This document shows positions 9,820 to 16,928 of a stretch of DNA of 64,000 nucleotides, in pieces. Made by a program: the position numbers and the translations under genes. The stretch lies in the sequence record PZ386964.1, one strand, 5' to 3'. Source of the DNA: a phage. Positions within the stretch are counted from its first letter, which is position 1. Every line of letters begins with the position of its first letter. A model generated the notes under the pieces. It worked only from the letters and a program-made list of their open reading frames with translations, was not told the origin of the DNA and did no database searches.

Positions 9820-10692
9820 CTATTTATTGAAATTAATATTATGGGTGTTAACAAGACGTTCACACATGGCGCTGTAAACACCATCATCGTGTATAGAGTC
9901 TTCGTGCTTCAGGCCGCTGATTGCAAAGCGTGTAAGCTTGACAATCTTAAGCTCGAACAGATGCCACATGTGGTAGTCTTCCGGCGTTTTCAACGTTACT
10001 CCATTAGGGAAAAGCACCTGCATAACCTGGCCAACCATCACGGCGTTATCGCCATAGACAGCGTTGCGCTCACGGAAGGTTGCTGCCATTGCATCAAGAA
10101 TATCGGCGGCAGTTGCCGGAGATTGTTCAACTTTCACAGCCTTAGTCTCTTCTTGCCCTGTTGCACTTGGATCAATTGCTAATTGTTGCACCACTTCACC
10201 TGCCTTGCAAAGATTAAATGTAAAAGCGATTTTATTTTGAGCAACGGAATTATAATACAATGCTTCATCTTGCATCCGCGCGAGTACGTCTTGTCGGTCG
10301 TCGAATACGTTGATGATTCGATAATCGCCGTGCCGCAATGCGTGCGATAGCCATGCAGATTTCATAATAGTTGATGGACGTTTGTCGCCATAGTCTCTCA
10401 TCTTGATTGTAAATTCATCAAAAGGAAAAACATTGTCCAGACGTTCAAAAGTCGCTTGTCTGTATTTTTCTGGCCTTGCAGTCCAATATTCAACCGCCTC
10501 ACCGCGAAGAGATGCCGACTCTACTGCTGATGCAATGTGAGGATAGAACTGATCATAACCAATACCGCTGTGATAGTCATCATAGTCTGACAACGGACCT
10601 GCCACCTTGATGCGGTCTAAGCGCCAACGGTCATCAAACAGCGTTCCGTCAAGGTCGAATACGTTTAAGATTTCGCTGTTTTTAATACTCAT
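9820..10692 (-). CDS. HAD-superfamily hydrolase/phosphatase fused to a C-terminal domain of unknown function
   Basis: 290 aa; N-terminal FDLDGTLFDD = HAD motif I (DxDGT); C-terminal 100 aa unrelated. ATGA overlap with ThyX-like gene. Confidence 0.55.
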   Translation of the reverse strand: MSIKNSEILNVFDLDGTLFDDRWRLDRIKVAGPLSDYDDYHSGIGYDQFYPHIASAVESASLRGEAVEYWTARPEKYRQATFERLDNVFPFDEFTIKMRDYGDKRPSTIMKSAWLSHALRHGDYRIINVFDDRQDVLARMQDEALYYNSVAQNKIAFTFNLCKAGEVVQQLAIDPSATGQEETKAVKVEQSPATAADILDAMAATFRERNAVYGDNAVMVGQVMQVLFPNGVTLKTPEDYHMWHLFELKIVKLTRFAISGLKHEDSIHDDGVYSAMCERLVNTHNINFNK

Positions 10693-11519
10693 CCTTTTGA
10701 TACTCCATCTTTAGCAACTGGATTGTTGGTGATTGGCATCGCACTCCAAAACTGGATGCGCAACTCTTCTTGCTGTGCCGTTGTATCCATCCAATCACGA
10801 TACCAAGGGCAATGGGCTTTGCCATGACGAGGAAACGCGCATTTACCCATACCGATGCATTGCGGCTGTAATAATGGATTTGCCCACGGGTGCACCTTGA
10901 GGACTTCCGCAACCATTGCGCGGAATACTTCTTGATACTCGCCTTGAGTGCGCGTGCACAAGCGGTTTGACGCCATCTGCTGCAGCGTGCGCAAGTTGAA
11001 CTTTGCCATGATATGCGTTTGCATATTAGAAGGCAACACGGCACGTGCATCTTGAATCTCTGCACCAGCCGCGCGAAGTTCTTGATACAAAGCATCGATA
11101 GTCGCCATCGCATCATCCCACTTCTCTGCTAAGTATTGCTTTTGAAGTAAAGATTGGTGCTCTTCATCAGTCCCAAATGCTTCACATTGATCAATCAACT
11201 CTGGATTTTGGTGTGAGAATGCCTTCGGACGAATCGCATCAAATGCAGACGACTCCTGAGCGCGGCTGGTGCGTTCTTGATATGCGCCTGTGCGTGTGCG
11301 TACCATCTGATGGGTCATGTTCTTTGATACAGCTGTGATATCAAAGATATAGTCCACAAAGTCAAAAGGAGACTTGATTGTATCAAGCATGTAGCGCCAA
11401 TGCTCTTGCTTCTCTGATTCCGTCATCTCAGAGACAGGCTTACCAGTCATGCGCGTGTTCTTTGTTTCCAGCAAAAGGTCAAGTGCATCTTGGGTGTATC
11501 GAATTAATTCAACTTTCAT
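10689..11519 (-). CDS. thyX: flavin-dependent thymidylate synthase (ThyX)-like protein, divergent
   Basis: 276 aa; ThyX-like blocks FDFVDYIFDITAVS...HQMVRTRTGAYQERTSRAQ (RHR-x7-S region, here RTR) and ARAVLPSNMQTH...NLRTL...RTQGEYQEV; extra Cys/His-rich C-terminal tail. Confidence 0.6.
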   Translation of the reverse strand: MKVELIRYTQDALDLLLETKNTRMTGKPVSEMTESEKQEHWRYMLDTIKSPFDFVDYIFDITAVSKNMTHQMVRTRTGAYQERTSRAQESSAFDAIRPKAFSHQNPELIDQCEAFGTDEEHQSLLQKQYLAEKWDDAMATIDALYQELRAAGAEIQDARAVLPSNMQTHIMAKFNLRTLQQMASNRLCTRTQGEYQEVFRAMVAEVLKVHPWANPLLQPQCIGMGKCAFPRHGKAHCPWYRDWMDTTAQQEELRIQFWSAMPITNNPVAKDGVSKG

Positions 11520-11532
11520 TTTAATTGTCCTA

Positions 11533-11979
11533 TTAACGGTAATTCACTAGTTGCTGATCACCAGAGAAGGTGCAATGATAAACGAATTGTGCGTTATAAA
11601 GCAACTGAAAACTTTTCTTTGGTTCACTATTAGAACTCATTGATGTAAAGATTTCTGCACCAGAACGGTTTTCACCAATCAGATTGATAAAGCCGCCAGT
11701 TGAACGAGGCTGGACGAAAGTGAAACGTTGCATCCACGGAGTACGGTTGGCACCTTTCCCTGTGAATCCCTGAATCTGAATATTCAAACCTTCTTGCTCA
11801 TTCACACCGATGTAAGTGGTAATCTTCGCACCAGTCGTTGCTGCGGTCTTACCGTCCATCGCTTCGCAATCATAAACAGCGATTGAATCGGAAGTGCGGA
11901 TGGCAGCTTCAGTCGCTTCCATATACATGGTGCCGAGAATAGCAGTTGCGGCAAGCGTGATTCCAGTGATTCGTTTCAT
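11533..11979 (-). CDS. secreted/periplasmic hypothetical protein (signal peptide)
   Basis: 148 aa; N-terminal MKRITGITLAATAILGTMYMEA resembles a Sec signal peptide. Confidence 0.5.
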   Translation of the reverse strand: MKRITGITLAATAILGTMYMEATEAAIRTSDSIAVYDCEAMDGKTAATTGAKITTYIGVNEQEGLNIQIQGFTGKGANRTPWMQRFTFVQPRSTGGFINLIGENRSGAEIFTSMSSNSEPKKSFQLLYNAQFVYHCTFSGDQQLVNYR

Positions 11980-12044: not shown

Positions 12045-13040
12045 TTATTTATTAGCAATATAAGCAAATTTTTGATAGTTATTTGCTTTGATGAGTTTTT
12101 CAACTTCAACAAGGTCATGAGCGACGTCATCAAGCAAAATGTTGCGCCAGGTAGCAAATCGACCGACACTAAACACGTTCAAATCCATGGTCAGCTGCAG
12201 GAGTAGGGCGTGTCGCAAGTCTTTCGGAATGTCGACAATCTTGCCATATTTCTGGTCGACCTTTTCAACTTCTTCAAGAGCGATGTCGCTCCATGAGAGG
12301 CCAAATGCCGTCAGCACTTCGTCAACTTCTGCGCGCAACTTGATGTCACGGTAACGAGTGATGCCGCCAGCGGCTTCAACTGCAGCTTCACTTACGCTGA
12401 CCAAAGGAATTGTTTCAATGATAAGCGTGTCACCAGTAATTGATGCGCGGTAAGTTCTGACGGAGTAGTCAGGGAAGTAAATTGTCTGATACAAATCACA
12501 CTTACGTTTAATCTTAAAGCGGTAAACGCGAATGTTTGCTTTATCAAATGAGAAATCAAGCTTTTGATCAATTCCAGCAAGCTTCATCATGACTGGCAGC
12601 GGCGACGTGTTGATGATTGGCGTCTCGCTATAGCCGCAAAGAGTATCAACCGGAGTATTAAAGAATATGCGGTCACCCAGTTTGTCGACAAGCTGATCAT
12701 AAAAGTCATCAGGTGCAATATAACGCGTTGCAGTTTTAAGCTTCATGATTGAACGACTGCCAAACTGATTGGTGACCTTCATGGAATACATATTGGCAAG
12801 GTTGATTGGGCAATGGTCGTGATAGTAGTTGCCGCGAAAATACACAGCCTTGTCAACTGTCACGGCCTTAAAGGGGATTCCGGTAATACGGCTTACTTCT
12901 TCGCCGCGAAAGCGTAGCAGCGCCTTGTGCTGTTGCGCTCGTTCCCCTGCTTCGTACACAATAGAGTTCGGGAAGTGACACGCGGTGATAAGTCCTGCCA
13001 GTCCGCCGCCGATAATCATTACAGGTTGTTTCATGTTCAT
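12045..13040 (-). CDS. FAD/NAD(P)-binding oxidoreductase
   Basis: 331 aa; N-terminal VMIIGGGLAGL dinucleotide-binding GxGxxG motif. Confidence 0.55.
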   Translation of the reverse strand: MNMKQPVMIIGGGLAGLITACHFPNSIVYEAGERAQQHKALLRFRGEEVSRITGIPFKAVTVDKAVYFRGNYYHDHCPINLANMYSMKVTNQFGSRSIMKLKTATRYIAPDDFYDQLVDKLGDRIFFNTPVDTLCGYSETPIINTSPLPVMMKLAGIDQKLDFSFDKANIRVYRFKIKRKCDLYQTIYFPDYSVRTYRASITGDTLIIETIPLVSVSEAAVEAAGGITRYRDIKLRAEVDEVLTAFGLSWSDIALEEVEKVDQKYGKIVDIPKDLRHALLLQLTMDLNVFSVGRFATWRNILLDDVAHDLVEVEKLIKANNYQKFAYIANK

Positions 13041-13117: not shown

Positions 13118-13147
13118 CGAAAAAAAGACCCACAACAAGTGTGGGTC
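13118..13147 (-). terminator. rho-independent terminator (minus strand)
   Basis: GACCCACA / TGTGGGTC 8-bp stem, 5-nt loop, followed on the minus strand by a U7 run; directly downstream of the Lys/Ala/Glu-rich gene. Confidence 0.7.
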
Positions 13148-13175: not shown

Positions 13176-14021
13176 TTATTCCGCTTGATCACCGTCTTCG
13201 GCATCGTCGTTGGATTCAACATCGACAAACTCGATGTGGCCCATCTCTTCCAGCTTGCTCAGGTAGGAGCGAACGGAAGCGCCAAACAGTTGATCTTTAA
13301 CTTTCTCTCCCAGCTCATCGATAGACTGCGCCACGCCAACTTCGCCTTCTTTGATCGCCGCCAGAACGCGCCCACGGGTGGAGTGCTCTTGCGGCTGGCT
13401 CAGGCCATTGCCAGTGTAGATGAAGTGAGTAGCTTTTGCACGACGCTGACCGTTTGCCTTTTTAGCAGCCTTGCGCTCTGCGATGGCTTTGCGACGTTCT
13501 TCAGCTTCTTTCTTACGCTGTTCTTTCTGCTGTTCTGCAGCTTCTTTCGCCGCAATCTTAGCAGCTTCACGCTCTGCCTTGCGTTTCGCTTTAGCTTCTT
13601 CTTTGGCCTTCTCTTTTTCGGCCTTCGCTGCAGCACGGGCCTGATCACGTTCGGCCTTTTTCGCCGCAGCTTGTTCAGCTTTCAGGCGCTTGGCTTCTTC
13701 TTTCGCCTTTGCCTTTTCAATTTCTTTAGCGGCTTTAGCGGCTTCACGCTCTGCCTTCTTAGCGGCAGCCTTTTCTGCACGCTCTTTAGCTTTCTTAGCT
13801 GCTTCTTCAGCACGCTTCTGAGCCTTCTCATCAGCAGCTTGCTTGCGTTTCAGCGCAGCTTCTTCACGCTTGGCTTGTTTTTCCTGCTCACGCTTCTGGC
13901 GTTTTTCTTCGGCTTCTTTCTTTTTAGCCAGGCGTTTTTCTTCAGCCACGCGACGACGTTCTGCTGCGGCTGCTTGTTTTTCTTCTTTAGATAATACTTT
14001 GATTGCTTCGGCCATATTCAC
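13176..14021 (-). CDS. Lys/Ala/Glu-rich charged low-complexity protein with globular acidic C-terminal domain
   Basis: 281 aa; about 180 aa of KxEEAxKK-type charged repeats then ...HFIYTGNGL...HIEFVDVESNDDAEDGDQAE. Confidence 0.5.
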   Translation of the reverse strand: MNMAEAIKVLSKEEKQAAAAERRRVAEEKRLAKKKEAEEKRQKREQEKQAKREEAALKRKQAADEKAQKRAEEAAKKAKERAEKAAAKKAEREAAKAAKEIEKAKAKEEAKRLKAEQAAAKKAERDQARAAAKAEKEKAKEEAKAKRKAEREAAKIAAKEAAEQQKEQRKKEAEERRKAIAERKAAKKANGQRRAKATHFIYTGNGLSQPQEHSTRGRVLAAIKEGEVGVAQSIDELGEKVKDQLFGASVRSYLSKLEEMGHIEFVDVESNDDAEDGDQAE

Positions 14022-14174
14022 AGTCCTTAAATAAATTAGTTTATTTTATATTCCCCGTTTGGGATAACTTAATTATGCCTTCAGTTGCCGCCAGTAGCAA
14101 CTAAAAACTATGGCGGCAATGCCACTTTAATTAAACTGATTTTCAGTTTTATTTTTCGTAAATTTACGTCAACA

Positions 14175-15359
14175 TTAACGCGCTTTCAAATCACGGTACA
14201 CGGTCAGATTCTTCTTAGCACGGGTGATAGCGGTGTACATCATCTTGGAGTACGGAACGCCGCGCAAGATTTCTTCCAGCACGCACACATTGTCCCACTC
14301 GCTGCCTTGCGATTTGTGCACCGTGATGACATAGCCATAGTCCATGCCTCCAACAGCGCGTTGCGCTTCTTTGCGCACTTCCTGATCAGTAGAGAAGGAA
14401 AGAGGATTGATCTTCACCTTTATATCTTTACCATCAGTTAATGAACGTAAGTTGACATACATTATTTCATTCGACTCATCTTCATCCCTTTCAAAGTCCG
14501 GCACTGGCTCATAGCTAATAACAATCCCTTGCTCGCCATTACAGAATCCTGGCCCGTGTTGGTTGAAGGTGCAAATAACCTTCTCACCGATTCCTGGCAT
14601 TGGCGTTATACGTCCGCTCACTTGCCGTAATAATGAATTCCATTTATCTTTGGTGCTATTATAGGAGCAAATAATTTGATCATCTTCGCCCATGAATTTC
14701 TTCAACGCAGTAACGCGCGGCGATTCTGCCAATACTTTGACGTCATCGTATTCACGCGGAGGAAGTCGGTTGCCTTGGCGCACGAAGAAGGAGGCACGGA
14801 TGATGTTGGACTCTTTCCCTTGCCGCATGATTTCTGTTAACAGAACGTCAACGGCATCTTCAGTAAAGTAGGCGGCGGCTTTTACCGGAGGGACTTGTCC
14901 AATGTCGCCTAATGCCAGCACAGGGATGCGGTGATCAAGAAGGCGCTCTGTGTCCCACTCGCCAACCATCGACGCTTCATCGAGTACAACAAGGTGCGGC
15001 CTTTCATCCAGCTTTGACTTTCTCGAAAAGATTGGCTCATTGTCGTCATTTACGCCGCGCACGTTATAGATGAACTGGTGAAGGGTCTTAGCGCCACGAC
15101 AGCCTTTTTGCTTTAATCGGCTTGCAGCCTTTCCGGTCGGCGCAATATAGATAGCGCCGTACTCACCGACACAGCGACGCACAATCTCGCGAGCAATAGA
15201 GGTTTTACCAGTCCCTGCATAGCCAGCAATGAAAAACACACGCTTCGTCGTTTTACCGTCCTGCAATCGCTTGTACCATGCAACGGCCTTCTCGATGGCA
15301 TTGATTTGTTGCGCGTTAAACTGAATCACTGGCTCATCATTAAATTCTGGAATGTTCAT
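14175..15359 (-). CDS. SF1 helicase, Dda/RecD-like
   Basis: 394 aa; Walker A GYAGTGKTS, Walker B VVLDEASMV, C-terminal VITVHKSQGSEWDNV motif. Confidence 0.7.
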   Translation of the reverse strand: MNIPEFNDEPVIQFNAQQINAIEKAVAWYKRLQDGKTTKRVFFIAGYAGTGKTSIAREIVRRCVGEYGAIYIAPTGKAASRLKQKGCRGAKTLHQFIYNVRGVNDDNEPIFSRKSKLDERPHLVVLDEASMVGEWDTERLLDHRIPVLALGDIGQVPPVKAAAYFTEDAVDVLLTEIMRQGKESNIIRASFFVRQGNRLPPREYDDVKVLAESPRVTALKKFMGEDDQIICSYNSTKDKWNSLLRQVSGRITPMPGIGEKVICTFNQHGPGFCNGEQGIVISYEPVPDFERDEDESNEIMYVNLRSLTDGKDIKVKINPLSFSTDQEVRKEAQRAVGGMDYGYVITVHKSQGSEWDNVCVLEEILRGVPYSKMMYTAITRAKKNLTVYRDLKAR

Positions 15360-15685: not shown

Positions 15686-15788
15686 TTCAGGCGACCTTTG
15701 TTAGTGCGGAAATATTTTCTGATAGTATAATTGCAGATATAGTATAAAGCAAAGTAAATCGAAATTGTGAACTAAATGGTAAATATTG

Positions 15789-15816
15789 TTGACTTTGTAT
15801 CACTCAATATTATACT
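15789..15816 (+). promoter_or_regulatory. sigma70-like early promoter
   Basis: TTGACT -16- TATACT in the divergent intergenic region; downstream RBS GGAAAGAAAG then ATG at 15846. Confidence 0.55.
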
Positions 15817-15845
15817 GCAGGTATTGATCACCGAAGGAAAGAAAG

Positions 15846-16928
15846 ATGGCTAGTTTAAGAGAAGAAGCAAAAATAATCGAAGAGTTTTTAACAGAACTCC
15901 AAAGAGGCATTCCAGAAGATGAGCGCGTCATGACGGTGTTTGCGCCTGAAGCAACGGTACAGACTGACGAGCGCGGCAAGAAGATTAACAGCAGCTTCTG
16001 GCCTAAGCCTTGGAAGTTGGGAAAGCCGCTGATGCAACATCAGAACGGTTACGCCTGCATAAGTTCAATGCGTAAGTCTCCCAACCCAAAGACGGGTGAG
16101 ATGCGATACTGGCGTACAGAGTCGGCCTTTGGTCACGGCATGGCGATGATGGTCGACGACATCGGTCACGGTAAAGGGTCCAAAGGCGATTTAGATTTGG
16201 AATTCTTTTTTGAGCGACTGAAGCCGACTGTCATCGTCGAGACTTCACCGAACAACCACCAGCTTTGGTACTTCTTTAAAGAACCGATTGACCATCTTAT
16301 TCAGTTCAAAGCGTTCCTTGGGTCTTTCGTTAACATGGTACTCAAGAAGGGCGGCGACAACACGATTAAAGACGTAACGCGCGTGGGCCGTGTTCCTGGG
16401 TGCATCAACAACAAGCGTGTGACTCACGACGGCCCCTATAAATATGTCGATGAGAACGGCGACCCGTTCCGCTGCCGACTTGTCCATGCAGACTACTCAT
16501 TGCGCTACACCATCGAAGACATTTGTCAGGCATTTGGCTTTCACGTCGTCATGCCGCAAAAGCGTGAGATTCAAATTGACGTCGATGAATACAAGTATGA
16601 TGCTGTTTGGTATAAAATAGCCCAGCAGATTCTATCGCGCAGCAAAATGGGTGAAGGGTCTGATGGTGACGTCATCGAGAACATGTCAGGCAAGTGCCGC
16701 ATAATCTGTCCTTGGGGTGAAGAACACACCAACGGCGACCCGTATGGCGCTTACTTTCGCGGCCCTATTCCTGGTGCAGAACATGAGTTTGTGTTCGGTT
16801 GCGCCCACGACTGTCACCGGAAAGGGGAAGGCAAGAAAGGTTGGACTGCTTTTGTTGAAGCAATCGTCATGCCTTATATTGAGAATCAACTTGACATGAT
16901 AAATCGTCGTGCAGGTGGCATAAAATAG
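15846..16928 (+). CDS. primase-polymerase (prim-pol/AEP-like) replication protein with C-terminal Cys/His cluster
   Basis: 360 aa; MVDDIGHG acidic motif and VIVETSPNNHQLWYFF (S..G.HxW-type prim-pol motif); C-terminal CRIICPWGEEH...FGCAHDCH zinc-binding-like cluster. Confidence 0.45.
   Translation: MASLREEAKIIEEFLTELQRGIPEDERVMTVFAPEATVQTDERGKKINSSFWPKPWKLGKPLMQHQNGYACISSMRKSPNPKTGEMRYWRTESAFGHGMAMMVDDIGHGKGSKGDLDLEFFFERLKPTVIVETSPNNHQLWYFFKEPIDHLIQFKAFLGSFVNMVLKKGGDNTIKDVTRVGRVPGCINNKRVTHDGPYKYVDENGDPFRCRLVHADYSLRYTIEDICQAFGFHVVMPQKREIQIDVDEYKYDAVWYKIAQQILSRSKMGEGSDGDVIENMSGKCRIICPWGEEHTNGDPYGAYFRGPIPGAEHEFVFGCAHDCHRKGEGKKGWTAFVEAIVMPYIENQLDMINRRAGGIK

What the first reader, a model, noticed from the sequence alone, without database searches (positions are those of the whole stretch)
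13176..14021. Lys/Ala/Glu-rich repeat protein in its own promoter-gene-terminator unit
About 180 residues of charged KxEEAxKK-type repeats, followed by a small globular domain and acidic tail. The gene ends in the clearest intrinsic terminator in the window (13118-13147), suggesting high, independently controlled expression. Candidates include a histone-H1-like DNA-coating protein, an internal virion protein, or a TolA-like spacer.
Basis: seen in the sequence. Interest (0 to 1): 0.45.

Follow-up and report, generated by a model that had tools for sequence, protein, structure and literature searches.

The report
Charged-rod, winged-helix phage protein
This is a real, expressed gene of a Wifcevirus (a PB1-like E. 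coli phage) that encodes a roughly 27-nm single alpha-helix with a continuous lysine/arginine stripe, a small winged-helix domain and an acidic tail; databases wrongly call it "TolA", and it is most likely a DNA-associated architectural protein whose function has never been tested.

Summary
It has its own sigma70-like promoter and a canonical terminator. The window is a Wifcevirus, and the protein is 100% identical to vB_Eco4M-7 gp83, ECML-117 gp81 and WFC_00071. The gene is real: across 8 genomes the helix region shows 512 synonymous against 14 non-synonymous codon differences, and published mass spectrometry found the protein in CsCl-purified particles.

Residues 10-188 are predicted as one long helix. 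It has no discrete repeats and no hydrophobic seam. Its Lys/Arg residues recur every 3.68 residues (11/3), forming one basic face. This periodicity appears in 24 of 27 family members. Residues 197-265 fold as a winged helix preceded by a basic arm, and the tail is acidic.

The family (PHROG 4765) is small and phage-restricted. The gene nearly always follows a Dda-like helicase, and the promoter and terminator arrangement is conserved family-wide. All three TolA tests failed.

The best reading, which is inferred, is an abundant DNA-binding architectural protein, possibly packaged with the genome. The function is untested.

The parts
13176..14015 (-). Coding sequence of the 279-aa protein (ATG at 14015-14013, stop at 13178-13176). 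The alternative GTG start at 14021 is two codons upstream.
   Evidence: ORF list and sequence. Orthologs are annotated with the same ATG. PHROG 4765 matches at E 2.4e-84. Codon differences in the helix region are 512 synonymous against 14 non-synonymous. The identical protein was detected by MS (PMC7048862).
13452..13988 (-). Residues 10-188: a long Ala/Lys/Glu/Arg-rich single alpha-helix, about 27 nm if straight. A continuous Lys/Arg stripe occupies hendecad positions 0, 3, 4 and 7. Glu/Asp lie on the other faces.
   Evidence: The single-sequence AF2 model gives helix 10-188 with pLDDT above 90 over residues 21-170. Lys/Arg periodicity is 3.68 residues, power 18.2 against a shuffle maximum of 11.5. 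44 of 66 Lys/Arg but only 2 of 40 Glu/Asp sit on the four stripe positions. The same period is found in 24 of 27 family members and in most of the 35 IMG/VR loci.
13428..13451 (-). Residues 189-196: a flexible basic arm, G-x-R-R-x-K/R-A/S-T. It reads GQRRAKAT here and G-x-RRP(K/R)AT in most relatives. It links the helix to the globular domain.
   Evidence: R192 is invariant and R191 and T196 are nearly invariant in 23 diverse sequences. pLDDT is low (51-58) in the MSA-based model. The resemblance to AT-hook or N-terminal-arm motifs is inference only.
13221..13427 (-). Residues 197-265: a winged-helix-type domain. The elements are b1 197-200, H1 213-222, b2 229-231, H2 232-243, H3 248-257 (the sequence 'VRSYLSKLEE') and b3 261-264.
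13179..13220 (-). Residues 266-279: an acidic, disordered C-terminal tail (DVESNDDAEDGDQAE).
   Evidence: Net charge over residues 263-279 is -8. pLDDT is below 50. Most family members carry an acidic tail.
14024..14028 (-). Shine-Dalgarno sequence AAGGA, 9-13 nt upstream of the ATG.
   Evidence: Read directly from the sequence. Invariant in 8 Wifcevirus genomes.
14072..14100 (-). Sigma70-like promoter: TTGCTA (14100-14095), a 17-nt spacer, then CATAAT (14077-14072).
   Evidence: Consensus scan, 9 of 12 matches. Invariant in 8 Wifceviruses. An equivalent TTGC(C/T)N-17-NATAAT element has its -10 box ending 46-59 nt before the start codon in about 15 of 22 related loci from several host genera. 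It has not been mapped experimentally.
14085..14119 (.). A perfect 9-bp inverted repeat, TTGCCGCCA / TGGCGGCAA, with 17 nt between the arms. It brackets the -35 hexamer. Candidate operator or RNA hairpin.
   Evidence: Found by the repeat finder. In most other Wifceviruses one arm differs by A>G, which would give a U.G pair in RNA. Relatives have unrelated inverted repeats in the same gap. Its function is untested.
13120..13147 (-). Intrinsic terminator: GACCCACA-cttgt-TGTGGGTC followed by T7.
   Evidence: -12.1 kcal/mol. Annotated as a terminator in the Mansfield, WFC and WFH records. An equivalent terminator with an unrelated stem sequence lies downstream of 22 of 24 homologs.

Best explanation
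The gene encodes an abundant nucleic-acid-associated architectural protein of the PB1-like phage lineage (Wifcevirus, Pbunavirus, Kylevirus, Myosmarvirus, Carpasinavirus and others).

Proposed mechanism:
- The C-terminal winged-helix domain, together with the flexible G-x-RR-x-K/R arm, anchors the protein on DNA.
- The 180-residue helix is a rigid monomeric rod. One face is a continuous Lys/Arg stripe that lies against the phosphate backbone of the same duplex or a neighbouring one. The opposite face is Glu/Ala.
- The acidic tail competes with DNA for the basic surfaces, or recruits a partner, as acidic tails do in SSBs and HMGB1.
- The gene is transcribed as its own unit inside the replication module, directly after the Dda-like helicase. 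The protein coats or organises replicating phage DNA, and some of it is carried into the capsid with the genome.

Shown here: the architecture, the Lys/Arg stripe, conservation and synteny, the conserved promoter-gene-terminator arrangement, expression of the protein, and its co-purification with particles.

Inferred only: DNA binding, coating or bridging of DNA, the role of the tail, and true packaging.
For: - The H3 sequence 'SVRSYLSKLEEMGH-I-F' matches the recognition-helix-plus-wing pattern of ArsR/MarR-type wHTH proteins (my own knowledge). R249 and K254 on H3, S212 and R214 at the start of H1, and R192 in the arm are invariant across 23 diverse sequences. R191 in the arm is nearly invariant.
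- The Lys/Arg stripe has a period of 3.68 residues, power 18.2 against a shuffle maximum of 11.5. 44 of 66 Lys/Arg but only 2 of 40 Glu/Asp lie on that face.
- The stripe is the feature conserved family-wide, in 24 of 27 members, while the helix sequence, its length (75-270 aa) and the N-terminus all vary. The helix itself therefore looks like a polyanion-binding element, not a spacer between two domains.
- There is no hydrophobic seam: 11 large hydrophobic residues in 190, and no significant Ala periodicity. AF2 predicts one continuous helix.
- Context: the Dda-like helicase lies upstream on the same strand in 33 of 35 IMG/VR loci. A 331-aa partner gene and ThyX lie downstream.
- The gene has its own promoter-like element and a conserved terminator, which fits high, decoupled expression.
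- In CsCl-purified vB_Eco4M-7, MS found 7 peptides, equal to the 7 tryptic peptides of 7-35 aa that the protein can yield. The score of 1197.6 ranks 7th of 33, above portal, capsid and sheath proteins.
- The homolog is the only 'putative structural protein' outside the structural module in the part of the JG024 record read, 30-66 kb.
- It was not reported among the proteins of DNA-free LiCl ghosts of Pbunavirus SCUT-S1. That is what a DNA-bound internal protein would show.
Against: - No DNA-binding assay exists for any family member.
- Foldseek against PDB gives no significant match (best E 0.17).
- Overall charge is not conserved: net -23 to +17 and pI 4.8-9.9. Simple polycation-type DNA coating cannot be the shared mechanism.
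- The virion MS lists also contain obviously non-structural proteins (helicase, glyoxalase-like, FabG-like). In ECML-117 the protein scored only 3.21 with 2 peptides.
- There is no 22-24-residue super-period that would match the DNA helical repeat.
Confidence: 0.4

Rival explanations
1. Replisome or recombination adaptor. The winged helix is a protein-binding module, as in RPA32C, and the acidic tail is a docking peptide, as in SSB tails. The rigid helix tethers the Dda-like helicase, polymerase or primase to another site. Any DNA contact would be secondary.
Against: Nothing conserved sits at the N-terminal end of the helix, so a two-ended tether lacks its second end. The conserved Lys/Arg stripe is unexplained by a pure spacer role. 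A dedicated promoter and terminator, plus high abundance in particle preparations, are unusual for a stoichiometric replisome adaptor.
Confidence: 0.2
2. A packaged internal protein that is ejected with the genome. Its elongated shape, one 1-nm helix plus a roughly 7-kDa domain, would let it pass the roughly 37-angstrom tail-tube lumen. It would act at the start of infection, for example by protecting incoming DNA. Its location in the replication module would be incidental.
For: It was detected in CsCl-purified particles of two Wifceviruses. Pbunavirus and related records annotate the homolog as 'putative structural protein'. The homolog was not listed for DNA-free ghosts. The tail-tube lumen is about 37 angstroms in Pa193 (PMC11456595).
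Against: The same MS lists include clear non-structural proteins, and the ECML-117 signal is marginal. The gene lies with early/middle replication genes, not the structural module. No capsid-targeting or protease-processing signal was identified. The cryo-EM studies of E217 and Pa193 do not mention it in the passages read.
Confidence: 0.15
3. A sequence-specific transcription regulator, possibly an autorepressor or a middle/late gene factor, that binds the inverted repeat overlapping its own promoter.
For: The domain has a wHTH fold. A 9-bp inverted repeat brackets the -35 hexamer. Every relative examined has some inverted repeat in the same intergenic gap. The upstream gap is 98% identical among Wifceviruses. 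Phage-specific promoters of unknown factor dependence exist in 14-1 (PMC10914365).
Against: The inverted repeats are unrelated in sequence and spacing between genera, although the recognition helix is nearly invariant. One arm is imperfect in most Wifceviruses. A 180-residue striped helix and very high abundance are not features of a classical repressor.
Confidence: 0.1
4. A TolA-like, envelope-spanning protein, as the GenBank annotations say.
For: Only the Ala/Lys/Glu composition of the helix resembles TolA domain II. Several records name it 'TolA protein'.
Against: BLASTP against E. coli TolA gives E 0.17 with composition correction. There is no PF06519 TolA C-terminal domain. There is no TM anchor: maximum hydropathy is 0.61 against 2.45 in TolA. 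TolA domain II lacks the 3.68-residue Lys/Arg periodicity, with power 1.7.
Confidence: 0.02
5. The ORF is a translation artefact of low-complexity DNA.
For: A 269-aa ORF is also open on the opposite strand.
Against: Codon differences are 512 synonymous against 14 non-synonymous. Homologs are conserved in 357 phage records. MS peptides were found. An RBS, promoter and terminator are present.
Confidence: 0.01

Closest known systems
PHROG 4765 / PB1 ORF66 / 14-1 gp67 / Pa193 gp84 / vB_Eco4M-7 gp83 (uncharacterised phage family, annotated as 'TolA protein', 'putative structural protein' or 'hypothetical')
   Same: True homologs. They share the architecture, the synteny and the conserved C-terminal domain, at 37-100% identity.
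   Different: Nothing differs; the window protein is a member. The family has no assigned function, and no characterisation turned up in the literature searched.
Linker histone H1/H5 (winged-helix globular domain plus a long Lys/Ala-rich tail)
   Same: Both combine a winged-helix domain with a long Lys/Ala-rich segment that could lie on DNA. Both are abundant. This is the best 'works like' analogy.
   Different: No sequence or profile match: Pfam finds nothing, and Foldseek to the yeast H1 globular domain gives E 3.0. The domain order is reversed. The segment is 21% Glu and preformed as a helix with segregated charge faces. An acidic tail is present. Overall basicity is not conserved.
ER/K single alpha-helix (SAH) domains (myosin VI/X, caldesmon, MAP7) and engineered (EAAAK)n rigid linkers
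   Same: All are long, monomeric, highly charged helices without a hydrophobic seam.
   Different: By my own knowledge, classical SAHs interleave Glu and Lys to maximise i to i+4 salt bridges. Here E to K at i+4 is at the low end of the spacings counted (13 pairs), and the charges are segregated into a basic face and an acidic/Ala face with 11/3 periodicity. No second domain is conserved at the far end.
E. coli TolA (domain II)
   Same: Ala/Lys/Glu-rich helical composition.
   Different: The window protein has no TM anchor, no TolA domain III and no significant similarity. TolA domain II shows no hendecad Lys/Arg periodicity.
KfrA of IncP plasmids (N-terminal wHTH plus a long Ala-rich helical tail) and H-NS-type proteins (helical oligomerisation region plus a DNA-binding domain with an AT-hook-like arm). 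Both are recalled from my own knowledge and were not tested beyond Pfam.
   Same: A small DNA-binding domain is fused to a long Ala-rich charged helix. Both have an architectural rather than enzymatic role.
   Different: No Pfam KfrA_N or H-NS hit at E<=1. The domain order is opposite. Those helices form coiled-coil oligomers, whereas this one has no hydrophobic seam.

Membership tests
PHROG 4765 (PB1 ORF66-like phage proteins) | Significant full-length profile match. | tested here: met
   E 2.4e-84, residues 1-279 against profile positions 14-271 of 294.
PHROG 4765 (PB1 ORF66-like phage proteins) | Conserved C-terminal domain motifs (G-x-RR-x-K/R-A/S-TH, PQ-x-x-S-x-RG, V/I-RS-Y/F-LSKLEE) and a position directly downstream of the Dda-like helicase. 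| tested here: met
   Alignments A1 and A3. Synteny holds in 7 annotated genera and 33 of 35 IMG/VR loci.
TolA (Tol-Pal system) | N-terminal transmembrane anchor (domain I). | tested here: not met
   Maximum 19-residue Kyte-Doolittle hydropathy is 0.61, and that peak lies in the C-terminal domain. TolA reaches 2.45 at residues 14-32.
TolA (Tol-Pal system) | C-terminal TolA domain III (Pfam PF06519). | tested here: not met
   E. coli TolA hits PF06519 at 2e-38. The window protein and PB1 ORF66 hit no Pfam family at E<=1.
TolA (Tol-Pal system) | Sequence similarity beyond composition. | tested here: not met
   BLASTP with compositional adjustment gives a best E of 0.17 over 70 residues of low-complexity helix.
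Linker histone H1/H5 | Linker_histone globular domain (Pfam PF00538) recognisable by sequence or by a specific fold match. | tested here: not met
   No Pfam hit. Foldseek to yeast Hho1p GII gives E 3.0, probability 0.15. Only generic winged-helix similarity was found.
Linker histone H1/H5 | Strongly basic, Glu-poor tail on the C-terminal side of the globular domain. | tested here: not met
   The long segment is N-terminal, 21% Glu, and followed by an acidic tail. Family pI ranges from 4.8 to 9.9.
Winged helix-turn-helix fold (structural class, not a family) | Three-helix bundle with a beta-sheet wing; structural matches to known wH domains. | tested here: met
Winged helix-turn-helix fold (structural class, not a family) | DNA binding through helix 3 and the wing. 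| not testable with these tools
   Only conservation of R249, K254, S212, R214 and R192, with R191 nearly invariant. Needs EMSA or a structure with DNA.
ER/K single alpha-helix (SAH) | Long helix that is stable as a monomer and has no hydrophobic seam. | tested here: inconclusive
   AF2 predicts a single helix 10-188 with pLDDT above 90 over residues 21-170. Large hydrophobics make up 6%, with no significant Ala periodicity. The monomeric state was not measured.
ER/K single alpha-helix (SAH) | Interleaved Glu to Lys/Arg i,i+4 (and i,i+3) salt-bridge pattern. | tested here: not met
   E to K pairs at i+4 number 13, at the low end of spacings 1-6. Charges are segregated into faces.
KfrA (IncP plasmid) | KfrA_N wHTH domain (Pfam PF11740) at the N-terminus. 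| tested here: not met
   No Pfam family at E<=1. The wH domain here is C-terminal.

The most novel reading that the evidence does not exclude
The family may be a previously unrecognised kind of phage chromatin protein. In this reading, a preformed, rigid helix of about 27 nm carries a near-straight Lys/Arg stripe with 11/3 periodicity. The stripe lines or bridges DNA duplexes, and the winged helix with its basic arm anchors the protein. The protein is loaded onto replicating DNA next to the Dda-type helicase and is packaged and injected with the genome. It would act as a viral 'histone' for a lineage of therapeutic phages. It might also stand in for the SSB or nucleoid-type function that is not annotated in the replication-module stretches read.
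Probability: 0.2. Interest if true: 0.7.

Novelty: new variant of a known kind. Interest (0 to 1): 0.45.

Why it matters
- The gene is conserved across Pbunavirus, Wifcevirus and related genera. tblastn finds the C-terminal domain in 357 phage records. These include phages cited as used in therapy or in experimental cocktails (PMC11990801; PMC10329688).
- It is apparently one of the more abundant non-structural or virion-associated products. Even so, public records label it 'TolA', 'structural protein' or 'hypothetical'.
- Correcting the TolA label removes a misleading annotation.
- The charge-segregated hendecad helix fused to a winged helix is an unusual design. It gives concrete, cheap experiments: EMSA, stripe charge-reversal, and quantitative virion proteomics.
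- If the protein coats or travels with the genome, it bears on how these phages package DNA, on how they resist restriction (Wifceviruses are notably restriction-resistant, PMC11990801), and on how their DNA is seen by host defences.

Tried and rejected
Family and sequence searches that returned nothing useful:
- Pfam, NCBIfam and PADLOC scans of the whole protein and of the C-terminal domain. The best hit was the Csa3 wHTH at E 0.017.
- PDB sequence and profile searches gave only sub-threshold hits: YejK at 0.72 and PefI at 0.93.
- Foldseek against PDB gave nothing significant. BFVD returned only the protein's own family. The afdb50 library was unavailable.

Searches with limited yield:
- The word-indexed protein search returned only 1 and then 7 mostly truncated homologs. 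The exhaustive representative search gave 29 clusters.
- The search for related loci failed with the 23-sequence alignment and worked with the 7-sequence one.

Repeat and periodicity tests:
- Tandem Repeats Finder found no real DNA repeat.
Between genera the helix length varies from 75 to 270 aa.
- A search for a 22-24-residue super-period matching the DNA pitch found none.
- Heptad or Ala-seam coiled-coil periodicity was not significant.

Literature:
- No paper characterises the protein.
- Ceyssens et al. 2009 (14-1 virion MS) is not held.
- Supplements of the Pa193 cryo-EM/MS paper and of the 14-1 ONT-cappable-seq paper are not held.
- The Gabija/F8 paper concerns a different gene, Gam.

Motif search: TTGCCGCCA in the window is too short to be informative.
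Full report
**Identity of the window and the gene**

The 1.4-kb region around the finding is 95-98% identical to 29 Wifcevirus genomes, which are E. coli/Shigella myoviruses such as WFC, WFH, ECML-117, vB_Eco4M-7, Mansfield and Bas98-101. The BASEL study describes these as distant relatives of Pseudomonas Pbunavirus (PMC11990801).

The ORF lies on the minus strand. The mechanical ORF starts at a GTG at 14021. The ATG at 14015 has an AAGGA Shine-Dalgarno sequence 9-13 nt upstream, and every annotated ortholog uses it. The product is 279 aa.

Neighbours on the same strand:
- A Dda/RecD-like SF1 helicase upstream (14175-15359; AAA_30 and UvrD_C_2 domains).
- A 331-aa protein downstream with no Pfam match (12045-13040). 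The Mansfield record annotates it, from HHpred, as UDP-galactopyranose-mutase-like.
- A 148-aa ORF and then ThyX further downstream.
- A RepB-type primase transcribed divergently at 15846.

The gene therefore sits inside the replication and nucleotide-metabolism module.

**Is it a real gene?**

Yes, on three grounds.
- Eight Wifcevirus orthologs are all exactly 279 aa. Summed over all pairs, the helix-coding part shows 512 synonymous and only 14 non-synonymous codon differences. The C-terminal part shows 219 and 57.
- The window protein is 100% identical to vB_Eco4M-7_83, ECML-117 gp81 and WFC_00071.
- Necel et al. (PMC7048862) detected those first two products by LC-MS/MS in CsCl-purified phage. 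For vB_Eco4M-7 they report 7 peptides, 25.8% coverage and a score of 1197.6.

An in-silico digest shows the protein can yield only seven tryptic peptides of 7-35 residues, covering 32.6% of the sequence, because the helix is cut into very small fragments. The observed seven peptides are therefore close to saturation. The 269-aa ORF on the opposite strand is the usual mirror image of low-complexity coding DNA.

**Anatomy**

*The helix (residues 1-190).* This part is 30% Ala, 24% Lys, 21% Glu and 11% Arg, with net charge +25 and only 11 large hydrophobic residues. AlphaFold2 without an alignment predicts one uninterrupted helix from residue 10 to 188, with pLDDT above 90 over residues 21-170. 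At 0.15 nm per residue that is about 27 nm.
- There is no discrete repeat. Tandem Repeats Finder reports only two trivial hits at the DNA level.
- The real regularity is a 3.68-residue periodicity of Lys/Arg. The observed power is 18.2; 2000 shuffles gave a mean maximum of 4.8 and an absolute maximum of 11.5.
- Written in rows of 11, Lys/Arg occupy positions 0, 3, 4 and 7 (44 of 66 Lys/Arg). These positions are neighbours on an 11/3 helical wheel. Only 2 of 40 Glu/Asp fall there.
- The phase drifts by only about 90 degrees over the whole segment at period 11/3.
- The helix therefore has one continuous, nearly straight basic face, with the acidic and Ala residues on the rest of the surface.
- Ala and hydrophobic residues show no significant periodicity, so a classical coiled-coil seam is absent.
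- This is also not the interleaved i to i+4 Glu-Lys pattern of textbook ER/K single alpha-helices. E to K at i+4 is at the low end of the spacings counted.

*The C-terminal part.* An alignment of seven sequences gave an AF2 model with pLDDT of about 90 for residues 196-265. The elements are:
- b1, residues 197-200
- H1, residues 213-222
- b2, residues 229-231
- H2, residues 232-243
- H3, residues 248-257
- b3, residues 261-264

In 23 diverse sequences the following are invariant or nearly so:
- R191 and R192 in the flexible arm before b1 (motif G-x-RR-x-K/R-A/S-T-H; 'RRP(K/R)' in most relatives)
- T196 and H197
- Q209
- S212 and R214 at the start of H1
- R249, L252, K254 and L255 in H3 ('VRSYLSKLEE')

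This is the pattern expected of a recognition helix plus an N-terminal arm, but that reading is an inference. Residues 266-279 form a disordered acidic tail.

**The family**
- PHROG 4765 (unknown function) matches at E 2e-84.
- tblastn with the C-terminal 93 residues finds 357 phage records. Of these, 293 are Pseudomonas phages, mostly Pbunavirus (PB1 ORF66, 14-1 gp67, Pa193 gp84, JG024 ORF68), at about 53% identity. Others include Pantoea Kyle (63%), Serratia MTx, P. syringae tabernarius, Xanthomonas XcP1, Burkholderia phages and Aeromonas Gekk3-15 (37%).
- An exhaustive HMMER search of 1.84 billion cluster representatives found only 29 at E<=0.001, and wherever the matched protein extends upstream the domain lies at its C-terminal end. 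The family is small and, so far, seen only in phages.
- Among 27 full-length members the Lys/Arg period is 3.62-3.70 in 24, with power 7.6-27.5. Most of the 35 IMG/VR loci show the same period.
- Other features vary: the helix sequence, its length (75-270 residues), the N-terminal peptide (often His-rich, such as 'MSHTHHH' or 'MHKHHNHDHN'), and the total charge (net -23 to +17, pI 4.8-9.9).
- The conserved features are the basic stripe, the winged-helix domain with its arm, and usually an acidic tail.

**Transcription unit**

The terminator is GACCCACA-cttgt-TGTGGGTC followed by T7, at -12.1 kcal/mol. It is one of the four or five best in the window and ties for the longest T-run.

The arrangement is conserved across the family:
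- 22 of 24 non-redundant homolog loci have a hairpin of -8.3 kcal/mol or stronger followed by a T-run within 160 nt downstream. The stem sequences are all different.
- Upstream, the window has TTGCTA-17-CATAAT at 14100-14072. Individual promoter scores are no better than shuffles. However, in about 15 of 22 loci the best match is TTGC(C/T)N-17-NATAAT with the -10 box ending 46-59 nt before the start codon. These loci come from phages of different host genera.
- The intergenic gaps are about 100-185 nt upstream and 80-200 nt downstream in most loci.
- The upstream gap is 98% identical among eight Wifceviruses.
- A 9-bp perfect inverted repeat (14085-14093 and 14111-14119) brackets the -35 hexamer. 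Relatives have unrelated inverted repeats in the same gap.

**What it is not**

The 'TolA protein' label in many records is a composition artefact.
- BLASTP against E. coli TolA gives E 0.17.
- TolA has the PF06519 domain and an N-terminal TM anchor. The phage protein has neither.
- TolA domain II lacks the 3.68-residue periodicity, with power 1.7.
- No Pfam, NCBIfam or PADLOC family is matched. That excludes Linker_histone and KfrA_N at the sequence level.

**Most likely function**

Three observations point to the helix as a binding surface for a linear polyanion:
- Nothing conserved sits at the N-terminal end of the helix, so a spacer role is unlikely.
- The helix's one conserved property is a basic face.
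- It is attached through a basic arm to a winged helix with conserved Arg and Lys on helix 3.

Given the position in the replication module and the co-purification with DNA-filled particles, DNA is the most economical candidate. I therefore favour an abundant DNA-associated architectural protein, with confidence 0.4. In this model the winged helix and arm anchor the protein, the stripe lies on the backbone of the same or an adjacent duplex, and the acidic tail modulates binding or recruits a partner.

The proteomics fits carriage with the genome but does not prove it.
- For: the vB_Eco4M-7 score ranks 7th of 33 proteins. The homolog is the only 'putative structural protein' outside the structural module in the 30-66 kb part of the JG024 record that was read. 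It is absent from the list for DNA-free SCUT-S1 ghosts.
- Against: the same lists contain a helicase, a glyoxalase-like protein and a FabG-like protein. The ECML-117 signal is marginal.

The rival readings are:
- a replisome adaptor, with the winged helix as a protein-binding module and an SSB-like acidic tail (0.2)
- a packaged and ejected internal protein as its primary role (0.15)
- a promoter-specific regulator (0.1)
- TolA-like (0.02)
- artefact (0.01)

Evidence weighing against the main model:
- Overall basicity is not conserved.
- No super-period matches the DNA pitch.
- Winged helices also bind proteins.
- No experiment on any family member was found in the searchable literature.

**Novelty and score**

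The gene family is already catalogued, though unnamed and mis-annotated, so the gene itself is not new. This analysis adds three things: the rejection of the TolA label, the winged-helix assignment, and the family-wide hendecad Lys/Arg stripe with its conserved stand-alone transcription unit.

The design, a winged helix plus a long charge-segregated rod plus an acidic tail, is a variant of the known theme of a small DNA-binding domain fused to a long charged segment (H1, KfrA, H-NS). It belongs to none of those families. Interest is 0.45. It is a solid, experimentally tractable lead in a therapeutically used phage lineage, but the function remains inferred.

Noticed in passing
window 12045-13040 (-), with 10689-11519 (ThyX) and genes further downstream: The 331-aa gene directly downstream has no Pfam match. 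The Mansfield record annotates it, from HHpred, as FAD-dependent and UDP-galactopyranose-mutase-like. It is the conserved downstream partner of the finding in 32 of 35 related loci. It sits in a run with ThyX, a PNK/HAD phosphatase, a FabG-like reductase and a glyoxalase-like protein. This may be a nucleotide or DNA-modification cluster. The BASEL study reports considerable restriction resistance for Wifceviruses (PMC11990801).
   Followed up: partly
window 11533-11979 (-): A 148-aa ORF inside the replication module begins with a signal-peptide-like N-terminus (MKRITGITLAATAILGTMYMEA...). It has no Pfam match. A secreted or membrane protein is unexpected among replication genes.
   Followed up: no
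window 14085-14119: A perfect 9-bp inverted repeat (TTGCCGCCA, 17 nt, TGGCGGCAA) brackets the -35 hexamer of the gene's promoter. In most other Wifceviruses the right arm reads TGGCGGCGA, which would give a U.G pair in RNA. It could be an operator or an RNA element.
   Followed up: partly
window 14016-14174, compared with loci L001 and L012-L017: The 159-nt intergenic region upstream of the gene is 98% identical in eight Wifceviruses. That is at least as conserved as the flanking coding DNA, which is 95-98% identical. It includes two A/T-rich palindromes at 14123-14153 and 14157-14168. This suggests dense regulatory content.
   Followed up: partly
homologs P0010, P0015, P0019, P0020, P0022, P0029; L009:1691-2833 (tabernarius); L011:1970-2860 (Gekk3-15): Many family members start with a short His-rich peptide such as MSHTHHH, MSHGHHNHG, MHKHHNHDHN or NHDHQHNHQHNH. 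The Wifcevirus protein lacks it. It may be a metal-binding or pH-sensing N-terminal tag.
   Followed up: no
window 13185-13994 (+): A 269-aa Phe/Leu/Ser-rich ORF is open on the strand opposite the gene. It is the mirror artefact of the Lys/Glu/Ala codons and is not a gene.
   Followed up: yes
vB_Eco4M-7 and ECML-117 virion MS tables (PMC7048862): Several products of this replication and metabolism cluster appear in CsCl-purified particle proteomes: the glyoxalase-like gp77, two unknowns gp70 and gp71, the FabG-like gp76 of ECML-117, and a DNA helicase. Either the preparations carry lysate proteins or these phages package non-structural proteins.
   Followed up: no
window 15686-15845: This divergent intergenic region lies between the leftward helicase operon and the rightward RepB-type primase gene. 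It contains a good sigma70-like promoter (TTGACT-16-TATACT, 15789-15816, + strand). It is probably a control region, or possibly an origin region, of the replication module.
   Followed up: no
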